DNA of 9,649 bases, taken from IMG/VR virus record IMGVR_UViG_3300014893_000026, positions 1 to 9,649 of that record. One strand, 5' to 3'. The DNA comes from a virus. Its lineage: Duplodnaviria; Heunggongvirae; Uroviricota; Caudoviricetes. Of the stretch, positions 1,116 to 5,664 are shown piece after piece; positions within the stretch are counted from its first letter, which is position 1, and the number at the start of each line of letters is the position of its first letter. Position numbers and translations under genes: made by a program. The notes beneath the pieces are model-generated. The model saw only the letters and a program-made list of their open reading frames with translations. It was not told the DNA's origin and did no database searches.

Positions 1116-1388
1116 ATGGACAATAACACCATTTCTCTACAGGAGTTGCTCGACAGCATTTCCAGGCTTCGGGAAGACGTGAATACCCTTACCGTCGCCT
1201 TCTCATATCTGGCATTCTCAATTCCAAGGGAACAGATGCAATCAACGCTGGCATCAATCCAGTTTGAATCATGCAATCCCAAATGGTCTCAGGAACAACA
1301 AGACTCTTTCAGGCGGCTTGCTGTATTACTGGATGAAAAATATGCTGGTAAAATTACCATTTCGGCGGACTCTTCAGAGAACCCGTAA
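1116..1388 (+). CDS. Hypothetical 90-aa protein, antisense to the lysis operon
   Basis: ATG at 1116 preceded by GAGGA with 6-nt spacing (tgaGGAttatttATG). Fills most of an otherwise empty ~340-bp gap between the DUF1327 gene and the endolysin. 3' end overlaps the DUF1327 gene 3' end by 35 bp (convergent). No family recognised. Confidence 0.4.
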   Translation: MDNNTISLQELLDSISRLREDVNTLTVAFSYLAFSIPREQMQSTLASIQFESCNPKWSQEQQDSFRRLAVLLDEKYAGKITISADSSENP

Positions 1389-1918: not shown

Positions 1919-2136
1919 ATCCTCACCCCGATGTACACAGATGGTGCAATATGTTTGAAAAGATCGGAGTCTATGGGGTAGTTTTTATAGCAAACGTTGT
2001 TCTCAACGGCGCTAAAAAACAGACACATTAAAAATGTGGGTAATTATTTTAAAAGAAAATCATATATTAAATAATAATACGAGATATGTTTTCATATTTA
2101 GTGTACTGTATACGGCCATTTATACAGGAAAAGCCT

Positions 2137-2307
2137 ATGTCAGAACGTAAAGACTCAAAATCACGCCGTAATTATCTCGTTAAATGTTCCTGCCCAAACT
2201 GCACCCAAGAGTCAGAACACAGTTTTTCAAGAATACAAAAAGGTGCCCTTTTGATCTGCCCTCATTGCAACAAAGTATTCCAGACAAATCTTAAAGCTGT
2301 AGCTTGA
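2137..2307 (+). CDS. Small zinc-ribbon protein (56 aa; two CxxC pairs)
   Basis: ORF-track entry 2086..2307; the likely start is ATG 2137 (MSERKDSKSRRNYLVKCSCPNCTQESEHSFSRIQKGALLICPHCNKVFQTNLKAVA), preceded by AGGAAA at 7-nt spacing. CPNC...CPHC suggests a Zn ribbon. Possibly the K-12 Qin small protein YnfU; that name is from uncertain memory and is not asserted. Confidence 0.65.
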   Translation: MSERKDSKSRRNYLVKCSCPNCTQESEHSFSRIQKGALLICPHCNKVFQTNLKAVA

Positions 2308-2363: not shown

Positions 2364-2395
2364 AATAAAAAACCCGCCTGAGCGGGTTTAATATT
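2364..2395. terminator. Bidirectional rho-independent terminator between the zinc-ribbon gene (+) and cspB (-)
   Basis: AAAAAACCCGC-ctga-GCGGGTTT (stem 2373-2377 / 2382-2386). The minus strand has the stronger U-run (GCGGGTTTTTTATTATC). Confidence 0.6.
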
Positions 2396-2670
2396 GTGGT
2401 ACTTTTTGTGGGAGTCATCCACTTACGCACTTTGTTTTGCTATGCCAGCAGTTAGCTTCTGCTGTAAAACTATTCATGCAGCAAACCTGCACTTCACCAC
2501 AATGGTTAGCATACTTTTCCTGATTAAGTTATTGCCAAATATGCTGGCCATTGTTTCATGTATTGGACCTCCTTACTATTTATTAAAGAGATCCAATATT
2601 CACCACTCTGTCTGTATCTCCACTCAGGCATCAGCCTTCTTCGTTATCGTATACAGACAAACTATGAATT

Positions 2671-2886
2671 TTAATCAGTAATTATGACATTTGCTGCTGC
2701 AGGACCTTTAGCACCACTCTCTACAGAGAAGGTAACCTTTTGACCTTCAAATAAGGTTCGATAATTATCATTCTGAATCGCAGAAAAATGCACAAACACA
2801 TCTTTACTACCATCAACAGGAGAAATAAAGCCAAAACCTTTATCAGCGTTAAACCATTTTACTAAACCAGTCATTTTATTTGACAT
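2671..2886 (-). CDS. cspB: Cold-shock protein, CspA family
   Basis: 71 aa, [71 protein letters not shown], with RNP1-like KGFGFI and RNP2-like VFVHF motifs. Near-identical to my recollection of E. coli CspB. AAGGA 7 nt upstream of the ATG. Confidence 0.93.
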
Positions 2887-2941
2887 TCTACATTCCTTAA
2901 CTTGAGCCTTTCGGCATAAATGGCTTGTATAACAGAAACGA

Positions 2942-3100
2942 CTTCGTACTTAATTGGAGAGACTCAAAGAAGGAATAAGTGAATAACACCTGAAATGAGA
3001 ACTGCTTTAGTAAACTACTTCGTACTTAATTGGAGAGACTCAAAGAAGGAATAAGTGAATAACACCTGAAATGAGAACTGCTTTAGTAAACTACTTCGTA
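2942..3100. repeat. Perfect 76-bp tandem duplication (two full copies plus 7 bp of a third) in the cspB-cspF divergent intergenic region
   Basis: 2942-3017 and 3018-3093 are identical base for base (cttcgtacttaattggagagactcaaagaaggaataagtgaataacacctgaaatgagaactgctttagtaaacta); 3094-3100 restarts the unit (cttcgta) before diverging. Confidence 0.9.
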
Positions 3101-3262: not shown

Positions 3263-3475
3263 TTGTCCCGTAAAATGACAGGAATTCTCAAAACCTTTGA
3301 CGGCAAAAGCGGCAAAGGTCTTATAACCCCATCCGATGGTCGTATCGATGTCCAGCTTCATGTTTCAGCGCTCAATCTCCGCGATGCAGAAGAAATTACC
3401 ACCGGATTACGCGTGGAATTTTGCCGGATAAATGGTCTGCGTGGACCATCAGCTGCCAATGTTTACCTTTCATGA
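3263..3475 (+). CDS. cspF: Cold-shock-domain protein, CspA family (CspF-like)
   Basis: 70 aa, [70 protein letters not shown]. The conserved MS-x-KMTG N-terminus implies a TTG start at 3263 (AAGGA 6 nt upstream); ATG 3275 is the alternative. Divergent from cspB as in K-12 Qin. Confidence 0.85.
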
Positions 3476-4677: not shown

Positions 4678-5664
4678 CTATNNNNNNNNNNGCGCACGAT
4701 CGATAAAACGAAATATCAGCTCCAGCTGGGAGCCATACTTCTCTTCAAATGCCACGGTATCCGCATGCAGCTCGTCGTGATGCTTTCTGCACAAAGGCAA
4801 CACAAAAAGGTCATGCGCTTTTGTTCCCATTCCACCCTGACCGTGACCTGTCAGGTGGTGGGGATCATCTGCGGGCTTTCCACAACATGCACACTGCTGT
4901 GTCTTAACCCAGCGCGTGTACTTTTCATTAACCCAGCGGCGACGTTTTGGGCGTAACATAAAAGACTCCGGCGACTCCGGATCCACTTTCAGCGCCAGCA
5001 CCTTTTTCGCCTTATCCTGGATGATGCTGGTGGCAGGAACCGAAGGCACAAGGTCACTTTCCCGGGTGACAGACGGCACAACAGGCTTCGGTAATCTCAG
5101 TGCCTTACGGGCTGCGCTTTCCGGTAAGGCATCCGCCAGGTCATTACGAATCAGCCACCAGCACAGTTCCGGCATTGTCACAACGTGACTGTCATCAAAA
5201 CCGAGATCCCGACGCACAACAGACAACACCCAGCGGGCACAGTTATCCGTTGCCATTAATTCCAGCCGTTCCGTGAACTGATCGCGCAGCTGGTTATCAC
5301 AGTGCCAGCACAGACGGATTGCACCCGGCGCGTGTCGCATTGTGGTCATGTTCTCGCTGTGCCAGTCGGAATGAGGCCACTGGCAGCCTTTTTCACGAAG
5401 TAACCAGCTTTCAAGACATTCCACGCCACCAGCACGACGGATCACTGCCTCATTGCGGAACACGGCCCGAACGGCAGGATCATCCGCCAGCGGTTGTGAT
5501 ACCGCCGGAACGGCACCACTGGCGAAAGATGAATAACGTTCCGGCTCAGGCTCCAGCAGGACACGCCCCTGCATAAACAGGGGCATCAGTTCTGAACCTG
5601 GTCTGAACAATACGATCCCCATACGCGGGGCAATTTCAGGGGTCAGTAGTGCTCTCACGGTCAC
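4678..5664 (-). CDS. DUF968-like protein with C-terminal Cys/His-rich HNH-like motif (YdfU-like); 3' end interrupted by an assembly gap
   Basis: 328-codon ORF; C-terminal CACCGKP...HHLTGHG...CRKHHDELH resembles an HNH/zinc-binding module. Position after Q matches K-12 Qin ydfU (from memory). The last codons span the N-run 4682-4691, so the true C-terminus and stop are uncertain. Start is GTG 5662-5664 or the next GTG (5656-5658); GAGG is upstream. Confidence 0.65.
   Translation of the reverse strand: MTVRALLTPEIAPRMGIVLFRPGSELMPLFMQGRVLLEPEPERYSSFASGAVPAVSQPLADDPAVRAVFRNEAVIRRAGGVECLESWLLREKGCQWPHSDWHSENMTTMRHAPGAIRLCWHCDNQLRDQFTERLELMATDNCARWVLSVVRRDLGFDDSHVVTMPELCWWLIRNDLADALPESAARKALRLPKPVVPSVTRESDLVPSVPATSIIQDKAKKVLALKVDPESPESFMLRPKRRRWVNEKYTRWVKTQQCACCGKPADDPHHLTGHGQGGMGTKAHDLFVLPLCRKHHDELHADTVAFEEKYGSQLELIFRFIDRAXXXX
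4682..4691. other. Assembly gap (10 N)
   Basis: Run of 10 ambiguous bases between the DUF968 gene 3' end and the Q start codon. Confidence 0.99.

What the first reader, a model, noticed from the sequence alone, without database searches (positions are those of the whole stretch)
2137..2307. Small zinc-ribbon protein next to the cold-shock genes
A 56-aa protein with CPNC and CPHC pairs and a basic N-terminus (SERKDSKSRRNY), convergent with cspB and sharing its bidirectional terminator. It may correspond to a small Qin protein described from ribosome profiling, but its function is unknown. A zinc ribbon with a basic tail suggests nucleic-acid binding.
Basis: partly seen in the sequence, partly recalled or inferred. 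Interest (0 to 1): 0.4.

Follow-up and report, generated by a model that had tools for sequence, protein, structure and literature searches.

The report
Known small zinc-ribbon gene ynfU
The 56-codon gene is ynfU, an already catalogued small zinc-binding protein of E. coli's Qin-type prophage whose function is still unknown; the one new point here is that it stays next to cold-shock genes across many enterobacterial genera.

Summary
It is ynfU (K-12 b4776, "putative zinc-binding protein YnfU"; Pfam PF23499, NCBIfam NF038384). It was found by ribosome profiling with stalled initiation complexes, confirmed by epitope tagging, and detected again by PIRT-Seq. The papers I could search report no function.

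The refutation test fails. Homologues exist in at least 80 enterobacterial species. C19, C22, C41 and C44 are kept in 74 of 76 intact copies, and dN/dS is about 0.13. The predicted fold is a generic four-cysteine zinc ribbon. Structural and profile matches are weak and not specific.

One point is new. A cold-shock-domain gene (cspB-like or cspF-like) lies within 1 kb of ynfU in 55 of 80 species loci and in 23 of 33 distinct flanking contexts. Most of those contexts lack homologues of the Qin lysis and Q genes. CSD genes are 46 times denser near ynfU than in the outer flanks.

My best guess is a zinc-ribbon binding module tied to cold-shock RNA biology. This is inferred, not shown.

The shared terminator hairpin (2370-2389) is a clear terminator only in the cspB direction.

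Separately, a strongly covarying hairpin with a kink-turn-like core follows the cspB stop codon.

The parts
2137..2307 (+). ynfU coding sequence (56 aa plus stop). Proposed zinc ligands are C19, C22, C41 and C44. Residues 1-13 form a basic tail predicted to be disordered.
   Evidence: Translation. Pfam PF23499 E = 6e-31. NCBIfam NF038384. RefSeq annotation. Cysteine conservation and dN/dS 0.13. Predicted strands at 14-18, 25-29, 38-40 and 47-49, mean pLDDT 75.
2126..2131 (+). Shine-Dalgarno sequence AGGAAA, 7 nt before the ATG when counted from the AGGA core (2126-2129).
   Evidence: Read from the sequence. CAGGA(A/G) sits at the same distance from the ATG in 25 loci from many genera.
2081..2109 (+). 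Conserved promoter-like block. It holds a weak -35-like element GAGATAT (2081-2087; AAGCWAT in other genera), about 14 nt of spacer, then GTG + TACTGT (2101-2109; GTGTATGGT in other genera). It implies a 5' UTR of about 20 nt. This is inferred from conservation only; no transcription start site data were available.
   Evidence: Alignment of 160 nt upstream of ynfU from 25 loci. The in-frame upstream ATG at 2086 (the 73-aa ORF) lies inside this block, and sequence similarity ends upstream of the block in the other genera.
2370..2389 (.). GC-rich hairpin AAACCCGC-CUGA-GCGGGUUU between the convergent ynfU and cspB genes. It is followed by U6 on the - strand (cspB direction) and by UUUAAUAUU on the + strand (ynfU direction).
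   Evidence: The terminator scan calls it on the - strand only. Folding gives z = -4.0 on the - strand and -2.1 on the + strand. The same CCCGC-loop-GCGGG hairpin, with varying loops, lies 50-110 nt after ynfU in Escherichia, Citrobacter, Raoultella, Klebsiella and Superficieibacter.
2671..2886 (-). cspB, the convergent neighbour and conserved genomic partner of ynfU.
   Evidence: RefSeq annotation. The Rfam cspA thermoregulator model matches 2604-3035 on the - strand at 142.8 bits. A CSD gene lies within 1 kb of ynfU in 55 of 80 species loci.
3263..3475 (+). cspF, the second cold-shock-domain gene of the module.
   Evidence: RefSeq annotation. The order ynfU, cspB-like (-), cspF-like (+) recurs in 22 of 80 species loci, 6 of them with Qin-type phage genes and 16 without.

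Best explanation
Shown: the ORF is ynfU. It is a translated, stand-alone gene for a 56-aa protein under strong purifying selection. Its ribosome-binding site and a promoter-like block upstream are conserved.

Inferred with high confidence (about 0.85): the protein folds as a single zinc ribbon. Two CPxC knuckles (C19/C22 and C41/C44), each at a beta-hairpin, hold one Zn2+ ion. C17 is not a ligand, because it is replaced in the wider family.

Inferred with low confidence (about 0.3): YnfU is a binding module rather than an enzyme. Its contact surfaces would be the invariant stretch between the knuckles (S26-E-H-S-F-x-R-V/I-Q-K-G36) and, in the close clade, the basic disordered tail (R4, K5, R11, N12). 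Its target would be RNA or a ribonucleoprotein such as the ribosome, in the same physiology as its conserved neighbours, the CspB- and CspF-type cold-shock proteins. In Escherichia the ynfU-cspB-cspF block rides as cargo between the Q antiterminator gene and the holin gene of Qin-type lambdoid prophages. It reads against the direction of the Q and lysis genes (all on the - strand), so it would be expressed from its own promoter in the lysogen.
For: Identity:
- Family scores and RefSeq annotation agree.
- The protein was detected by SPA tagging at the highest level among the newly found small proteins, and its two CPXC zinc knuckles were noted.
- PIRT-Seq detected the gene independently.

Zinc ribbon:
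- C19, C22, C41 and C44 are kept in 74 of 76 copies.
- They are invariant in an alignment that reaches relatives of 23-40% identity, where C17 becomes I, V, S or T.
- The model shows four short strands with the knuckles at the turns; the core pLDDT is 78-87.

Selection and expression signals:
- Median dN/dS is 0.13.
- The Shine-Dalgarno sequence and the promoter-like block are conserved across genera.

Link to cold-shock genes:
- A CSD gene lies within 1 kb in 55 of 80 species loci.
- This holds in 23 of 33 distinct flanking contexts, of which only 4 have Qin lysis or Q homologues.
- CSD gene density is 46 times higher within 1 kb than in the outer flanks.
- In Klebsiella and Enterobacter the pair sits among ordinary chromosomal genes.

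RNA or ribosome target (weak evidence only):
- The protein carries a net positive charge.
- The best fold matches are archaeal ribosome-bound small zinc fingers and HVO_2753 (Foldseek E = 0.17, probability 0.9).
- The best profile matches in the PDB are ribosomal zinc ribbons, led by eL42 at E = 0.002.
Against: - No experiment or tool result here shows zinc binding, RNA binding or cold induction.
- The basic tail is missing from the more distant relatives.
- 25 of 80 species loci have no CSD gene nearby. Examples are Kosakonia, where the neighbour is an HSP20 gene, and Franconibacter. The distant relatives checked are also not next to csp genes.
- Adjacency could reflect co-mobilisation of a block rather than shared function.
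- The implied 5' UTR is short (about 20 nt), unlike the long thermosensing leaders of cold-shock mRNAs.
Confidence: 0.35

Rival explanations
1. YnfU is a protein-binding adaptor. Its zinc ribbon would dock onto a larger protein, such as a Csp protein, a chaperone, RNA polymerase or a transporter, and modulate it. This is how most characterised E. coli small proteins work.
For: Weaver et al. expect most small proteins to act by binding larger proteins. The invariant SEHSFxRVQKG surface is kept even in relatives that lack the basic tail. There is weak similarity to the Hsp70-escort DNL zinc finger Tim15 (E = 0.014-0.02). In Kosakonia the neighbour is an HSP20 chaperone gene.
Against: No partner has been identified. 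The DNL match is below the Pfam cut-off (13.5 against 27 bits), and the motif after the second knuckle is not conserved in YnfU. This reading does not explain the basic conserved tail of the close clade as well as the RNA reading does.
Confidence: 0.3
2. YnfU is a prophage moron that serves phage-host or phage-phage conflict, for example superinfection exclusion, defence or anti-defence.
For: In E. coli it lies in the cargo slot between Q and the holin of Qin-type prophages, on the opposite strand to the Q and lysis genes. It is present in sequenced temperate phages such as 2H10, Tritos and HannyBb. Only 30% of complete E. coli genomes carry it.
Against: Only 4 of 33 flanking contexts across genera contain Qin lysis or Q homologues. 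This test covers only four Qin proteins, so other phage types would be missed. In Klebsiella, Enterobacter and Franconibacter the gene sits among metabolic and regulatory chromosomal genes. There is no PADLOC match and no significant PHROG match.
Confidence: 0.1
3. YnfU acts in metal handling, as a small zinc buffer or zinc chaperone.
For: It has four conserved cysteines and relatively high abundance for a small protein. A machine-learning paper cites it as a possible metal-binding protein.
Against: One structural zinc site per 56 residues is the normal way to stabilise a mini-domain. By eye I saw no palindrome resembling a Zur-type operator in the conserved upstream block; this was not formally scanned. 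The neighbours are cold-shock genes, not zinc-uptake genes. The strongly conserved non-cysteine surface argues for a macromolecular partner.
Confidence: 0.07
4. The locus acts mainly through RNA. Convergent ynfU transcription that leaks past the weak + strand terminator would act as antisense to the cspB 3' UTR and coding region, and the peptide would be secondary.
For: The genes are convergent. The terminator has a poor U tract on the ynfU strand. The convergent arrangement recurs in 36 of 80 species loci.
Against: dN/dS of 0.13 and invariant cysteines show that selection acts on the protein. The protein is detected in cells. In many loci the partner is a co-oriented cspF-like gene or an upstream csp gene, where no antisense effect is possible.
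Confidence: 0.05

Closest known systems
YnfU of E. coli K-12 (b4776; Pfam PF23499, NCBIfam NF038384)
   Same: Same gene. It occupies the same slot between essQ and cspB in a Qin-type prophage. It is 96% identical to the K-12 copy, has the same 56-aa length and both CPxC knuckles.
   Different: The closest named E. coli YnfU cluster, P0001 (95% identical), differs at D6N, I33V and K54N. I did not read the K-12 residues directly. The window is 100% identical to strains such as A33 and MS20659 rather than to K-12.
PhnA/YjdM N-terminal zinc ribbon (PA0128, PDB 2akl)
   Same: It has two CxxC knuckles with similar spacing. Weaver et al. reported a moderate threading match. Pfam Zn_Ribbon_YjdM matches at E = 1.4e-4.
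   Different: The score is below the Pfam cut-off (22.3 against 30.8 bits). The PDB sequence E-value is 0.11-0.59. YnfU lacks the C-terminal PhnA domain. The function of PhnA is itself unknown.
Archaeal small zinc-finger proteins bound to ribosomes (HVO_2753-like; PDB 6ydh, 9o17_AZ, 9znf_BV, 9fhl_C)
   Same: These are the best fold matches. They are small, about 50-60 aa, with 26-34% identity over 35-38 aligned columns.
DNL-type zinc finger (Tim15/Zim17/Hep1, PDB 2e2z)
   Same: The pattern C-x2-C-x3-S-x-H-x2-S-[KR]...KG-x2-LI-x-CPHC aligns over 33 residues (E = 0.014).
   Different: Pfam zf-DNL scores 13.5 against a cut-off of 27 bits. The segment after the second knuckle is variable in YnfU, so no conserved motif follows it. 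From my own knowledge, DNL proteins carry their defining motif there.
B. subtilis YdjO, a cold-shock-induced small protein of unknown function
   Same: It is a functional analogy only: a small uncharacterised protein linked to cold shock and to the number of csp genes in Bacillus (PMC6449464).
   Different: No homology was found. YdjO is not among the 25 best Pfam matches shown. I did not check whether YdjO has CxxC pairs. Cold induction of YnfU has not been tested.

Membership tests
YnfU family (Pfam PF23499 / NCBIfam NF038384) | Score above the curated family cut-offs over the full length | tested here: met
   Pfam 106.5 bits against 27, residues 1-49 of 49. NCBIfam 79.5 bits against 36.
YnfU family (Pfam PF23499 / NCBIfam NF038384) | Two CPxC knuckles about 18 residues apart, plus the SEHSF-x-R-[VI]-QKG segment between them | tested here: met
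   C19, P20, C22, S26-F30, R32, Q34-G36, C41, P42 and C44 are invariant in the 13-sequence alignment A3. The four cysteines are kept in 74 of 76 species copies.
YnfU family (Pfam PF23499 / NCBIfam NF038384) | Same genomic position as K-12 ynfU (between essQ and cspB in Qin) | tested here: met
   Gene order matches between the window, strain A33 and K-12.
Zinc ribbon fold (C4) | Two zinc knuckles, each at the turn of a beta-hairpin | tested here: met
   The AlphaFold2 model has strands 14-18/25-29 and 38-40/47-49 with the knuckles at 19-22 and 41-44. Mean pLDDT is 75 and the core is 78-87. This is a prediction only.
Zinc ribbon fold (C4) | Stoichiometric Zn2+ bound by the four cysteines | not testable with these tools
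   This needs metal analysis of purified protein. No solved structure of a family member turned up.
DNL-type zinc finger (Pfam PF05180) | Score above the gathering cut-off and a conserved motif after the second knuckle | tested here: not met
   13.5 bits against 27. The residues after C44 vary among homologues.
PhnA/YjdM zinc ribbon (Pfam PF08274) | Score above the gathering cut-off | tested here: not met
   22.3 bits against 30.8. PA0128 matches at E = 0.11-0.59.
Ribosomal or ribosome-associated zinc ribbons (eL42, HVO_2753-like) | Significant sequence or fold similarity over the whole domain | tested here: not met
Bidirectional intrinsic terminator | GC-rich stem followed by a U run on both strands | tested here: inconclusive
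   The stem is present and conserved. There is a U6 run on the cspB strand. On the ynfU strand only UUU precedes AAUAUU here, and UUUGAGAUU in K-12. No 3'-end mapping data were available.
Anti-phage defence or phage protein families (PADLOC, PHROGs) | Match to a model in the library | tested here: not met
   PADLOC gave no match up to E = 1. The best PHROG match is E = 0.0027, to a family of unknown function.

The most novel reading that the evidence does not exclude
YnfU is a dedicated partner of the CspB/CspF-type cold-shock paralogues. It would be a zinc-ribbon RNA-binding (or ribosome-binding) factor that acts on cold-shock transcripts. One candidate target is the conserved hairpin with a kink-turn-like core that follows the cspB stop codon, about 300 nt from ynfU. 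Through it YnfU would tune cspB expression or mRNA stability. This would give a function both to an orphan small protein and to an undescribed RNA element.
Probability: 0.08. Interest if true: 0.55.

Novelty: already known. Interest (0 to 1): 0.15.

Why it matters
The gene itself is catalogued, so confirming it adds nothing new. What may help a specialist is the persistent pairing of ynfU with cspB- and cspF-type genes across genera and chromosomal contexts. This is the first concrete lead on the function of an abundant orphan small protein. It points to simple experiments: a cold-shift western blot, CLIP, and double mutants. The covarying hairpin in the cspB 3' UTR, with its kink-turn-like core, is a separate structural element. 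Rfam treats its inner 33 nt as an insertion within the cspA model.

Tried and rejected
- **Longer 73-aa ORF from ATG 2086.** Rejected. That ATG lies inside the conserved promoter-like block. Sequence upstream of the annotated start is not conserved as coding in other genera, and the Shine-Dalgarno sequence fits the ATG at 2137.
- **DNL, PhnA, eL42 or HVO_2753 membership.** All are below cut-off or not significant.
- **Phage defence or phage family.** No PADLOC match and no meaningful PHROG match.
- **Known RNA families in the ynfU-cspB spacer.** Rfam in E-value mode over 1900-2720 gave only sub-threshold matches centred on the terminator hairpin.
- **The 11-codon ORF behind a perfect TAAGGAGGT at 2524-2559 (- strand).** It is not conserved outside E. 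coli and is deleted in Escherichia sp. E1V33.
- **tRNA genes.** None in the window or in the phage HannyBb locus.
- **The string of tiny annotated ORFs beside ynfU in phage HannyBb.** There is no tandem repeat, and the cspA model matches where cspB should be. The cause was not established.
- **Whether the cspB 3' hairpin belongs with ynfU.** In viral contigs it follows a csp gene in 118 of 120 cases, and in a few divergent cases no ynfU is nearby. It therefore belongs to cspB.
- **Literature.** Searches for ynfU, b4776 and cspB with kink-turn found no functional study.

Full report
**1. Observation**

The + strand ORF at 2137-2307 translates to MSERKDSKSRRNYLVKCSCPNCTQESEHSFSRIQKGALLICPHCNKVFQTNLKAVA (56 aa). 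An AGGA Shine-Dalgarno sequence (2126-2129) precedes the ATG by 7 nt. The gene is convergent with cspB (2671-2886, - strand). One strong GC hairpin lies between them at 2370-2389.

**2. Identity**

- A megablast of 1900-2700 against complete E. coli genomes finds the stretch in 1653 of 5426 genomes. In the listed records it is annotated "ynfU: putative zinc-binding protein YnfU", flanked by essQ and cspB.
- The window is 100% identical to strains such as A33. The surrounding gene order is that of a Qin-type lambdoid prophage: rrrQ, ydfR, essQ, ynfU, cspB, cspF, ydfT (the Q antiterminator), then DUF968, KilA-N, RusA and others.
- In K-12 the gene is b4776, at 1640805-1640975 inside cryptic prophage Qin.
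- Pfam YnfU (PF23499) matches at 6e-31 and NCBIfam NF038384 at 9.5e-23. Both are far above their curated cut-offs.

**3. What is published**

- Weaver et al. (bioRxiv 10.1101/511675) found ynfU by ribosome profiling with stalled initiation complexes. They confirmed it by chromosomal tagging and found its level the highest among their new proteins. [quoted passage not shown]
- PIRT-Seq detected it again as a coding gene.
- Other mentions only repeat the zinc-binding idea or list the gene among those with no literature.
- One evolution study lists a low-frequency polymorphism in the ynfU/cspB spacer, with no functional test.
- Searches for ynfU and b4776 gave no functional study.

The finding is therefore already known, and its function is open.

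**4. Is the protein real and constrained?**

- A word-indexed search of 5.8 billion proteins gave 32 clusters, all named ones from Enterobacteriaceae.
They come from Escherichia, Shigella, Citrobacter, Klebsiella, Raoultella, Kosakonia, Enterobacter, Salmonella, Superficieibacter, Franconibacter, Yokenella, Leclercia, Kluyvera, Atlantibacter, Phytobacter, Scandinavium and Silvania.
- Across 76 intact copies, C19, C22, C41 and C44 are kept in 74. C17 is kept in 71. Median pairwise dN/dS is 0.13.
- A full HMM search of 1.84 billion representatives found only 48 proteins at E <= 0.001. The family is small.
- Its more distant members (23-40% identity, 53-58 aa) keep the four cysteines, P20, L39 and F48, and mostly P42 and the S-E-H-S...[RK]-[VI]-x-K segment. 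They lose C17 and the basic tail.

**5. Structure**

- AlphaFold2 with a 13-sequence alignment gives mean pLDDT 75 (78-87 in the core, about 51 at both ends). It predicts strands 14-18, 25-29, 38-40 and 47-49 and a short helix at 30-34. This is two beta-hairpins carrying the two knuckles, the zinc-ribbon layout.
- Foldseek against the PDB gives nothing significant. The best matches are archaeal ribosome-bound small zinc fingers and HVO_2753 (E = 0.17-0.7, TM about 0.47).
- The profile against PDB sequences gives eL42 at E = 0.002 over the first knuckle only, Tim15 at 0.02 and PA0128 at 0.59.
- I read this as a generic zinc ribbon with no specific relative of known function.

**6. Expression signals**

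- An alignment of 160 nt upstream of ynfU from 25 loci shows a conserved block: an A-rich stretch, AAGCWAT, about 14 nt, GTGTATGGT, about 20 nt, CAGGA, 7 nt, ATG.
- In the window this corresponds to GAGATAT (2081-2087) and GTG-TACTGT (2101-2109).
- The consensus scanner's own promoter calls at 2048-2078 do not coincide with this block.
- The block implies a short leader. It also argues against the longer 73-aa ORF that starts at 2086.
- This is inferred from conservation. I had no transcription start site data.

**7. The terminator claim**

- The hairpin AAACCCGC-CUGA-GCGGGUUU (2370-2389) is followed by U6 on the - strand, and the scanner calls it only there.
- On the ynfU strand it is followed by UUUAAUAUU here, and by UUUGAGAUU in K-12.
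- It lies 62 nt from the ynfU stop and 281 nt from the cspB stop.
- The same CCCGC/GCGGG stem, with different loops, is kept 50-110 nt after ynfU in Escherichia, Citrobacter, Raoultella, Klebsiella and Superficieibacter.
- It is therefore the likely end of both transcripts. It is a textbook terminator only for cspB.

**8. Genomic association, the new point**

- In the 80 species loci, 55 have a cold-shock-domain gene within 1 kb of ynfU.
- The commonest layouts are ynfU(+) cspB-like(-) cspF-like(+) in 22 loci, ynfU(+) cspF-like(+) in 8, and ynfU(+) cspB-like(-) in 10.
- I clustered the loci by shared flanking ORFs. This gave 33 distinct contexts. 23 of them keep the csp neighbour, and only 4 contain homologues of the Qin lysis or Q proteins. 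That test is narrow and would miss other phage types.
- CSD genes are 46 times denser within 1 kb of ynfU than in the outer flanks of the same loci: 84 in 158 kb against 7 in 610 kb.
- In Klebsiella the pair sits between amino-acid and PTS operons. In Enterobacter it sits near tus, a two-component sensor and regulator pair, and pmrD.
- There are exceptions. Kosakonia has an HSP20 gene as the convergent neighbour, and Franconibacter and the distant relatives have no stress gene nearby.
- ynfU also occurs in a few sequenced temperate phages. It matches no PADLOC model and no significant PHROG family.
- The association is well beyond chance. It could still reflect co-mobilisation of a block rather than shared function.

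**9. Mechanism**

- Shown: a translated, constrained, stand-alone small gene.
- Inferred strongly: a C4 zinc ribbon.
- Inferred weakly: a binding module whose conserved inter-knuckle surface and basic tail contact RNA or a ribonucleoprotein within cold-shock physiology.
- Rivals: a protein-binding adaptor, a prophage conflict gene, a metal-handling protein, and an antisense role for the transcript. Each is listed with its evidence in the rivals section.
- None of these can be settled with sequence tools.

**10. Side observation**

- Immediately after the cspB stop codon, on the - strand at about 2609-2658, lies a hairpin. Its 9-bp outer stem covaries extensively.
- Its core is almost invariant across genera: CGAYAACGAWGAMGG, a loop of 4-5 nt, then CCUGAGUAGA.
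- In a 24-sequence alignment, 90% of cells pair, against 26-37% when the partner columns are slid. 11 of 14 pairs show compensatory changes, and the covariation score is 0.58 against at most 0.125 in the controls.
- The core has the layout of a kink-turn. There is a Watson-Crick stem (A-U switching to G-C in five sequences, then C-G), a 3-nt bulge (G-A-W), tandem G.A and A.G pairs, and then a GGC/GCC stem. This reading comes from inspecting the alignment and is not a tested fact.
- The window's own sequence folds with z = -4.6.
- The Rfam cspA model aligns the outer stem to the cspA terminator and treats the inner 33 nt as an insertion.
- In E. coli genomes that carry the element it almost always occurs once, at cspB (median 1 place, highest 2).
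- In viral contigs it follows a csp gene in 118 of 120 hits, and in a few cases no ynfU is nearby. It therefore belongs to cspB.
- The library held no paper containing both "cspB" and "kink-turn".

**11. Verdict**

The object is an already known gene, so the finding scores low. What remains of interest is the conserved ynfU-csp pairing and, separately, the cspB 3' hairpin.

Noticed in passing
window 2609-2658 (- strand), immediately 3' of the cspB stop codon: A conserved hairpin with a 9-bp covarying outer stem. Its core is nearly invariant (CGAYAACGAWGAMGG, 4-5 nt, CCUGAGUAGA) and is laid out like a kink-turn: a Watson-Crick stem, a 3-nt bulge, tandem G.A/A.G pairs and an apical GGC/GCC stem. 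90% of cells pair against 26-37% in slid controls, and 11 of 14 pairs show compensatory changes. Rfam's cspA model treats the inner 33 nt as an insertion. E. coli genomes that carry it nearly always have it once, at cspB. It follows a csp gene in 118 of 120 viral-contig hits. The library held no paper with both "cspB" and "kink-turn".
   Followed up: partly
window 2390-2608 (- strand), between the cspB 3' hairpin and the terminator: The 281 nt between the cspB stop and the only strong terminator contain further blocks conserved from Escherichia to Citrobacter, Superficieibacter and Kluyvera. Examples are GGYCAGCAUAUUU...AGUAUGCUGACC and GUGCAGGUUUGCUGCA...CAGAAGCUAACUGCU. A second stem shows some compensatory changes. 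This may be a long structured 3' UTR or a 3'-derived small RNA.
   Followed up: partly
window 2524-2575 (- strand): A perfect Shine-Dalgarno sequence, TAAGGAGGT, is followed 8 nt later by ATG and an 11-codon ORF (MKQWPAYLAIT) inside the cspB 3' region. It is present in E. coli, deleted in Escherichia sp. E1V33 and not conserved in Citrobacter or beyond. It is probably not a conserved gene.
   Followed up: partly
window 4682-4691: A run of 10 N lies between the start of the Q antiterminator gene (ydfT) and the end of the DUF968 gene. It shows up as X in the ORF translations.
   Followed up: no
window 1116-1388 (+ strand): A 90-aa ORF runs antisense between rrrQ and ydfR and overlaps the 3' end of ydfR. 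RefSeq annotates it as a hypothetical protein in strain A33 (WP_001315200.1), and K-12 does not annotate it.
   Followed up: no
L088 6001-6781 (Kosakonia sp. SMBL-WEM22): Here ynfU is convergent with an HSP20 small heat-shock gene instead of a csp gene. The neighbour is again a stress-protein gene.
   Followed up: no
L084-L086 5017-6180 (Enterobacter cloacae complex): An IS-type DDE transposase gene ends 15 nt before the called start of ynfU. The insertion lies right at the upstream edge of the ynfU-cspB pair.
   Followed up: no
L092 4300-7350 (Escherichia phage HannyBb, PP925841.1): About 20 annotated ORFs of 30-55 aa fill the space between ynfU and the Q gene. There are no tRNAs and no tandem repeat, and the Rfam cspA model matches where cspB should be. 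The cause of the fragmentation was not established.
   Followed up: partly
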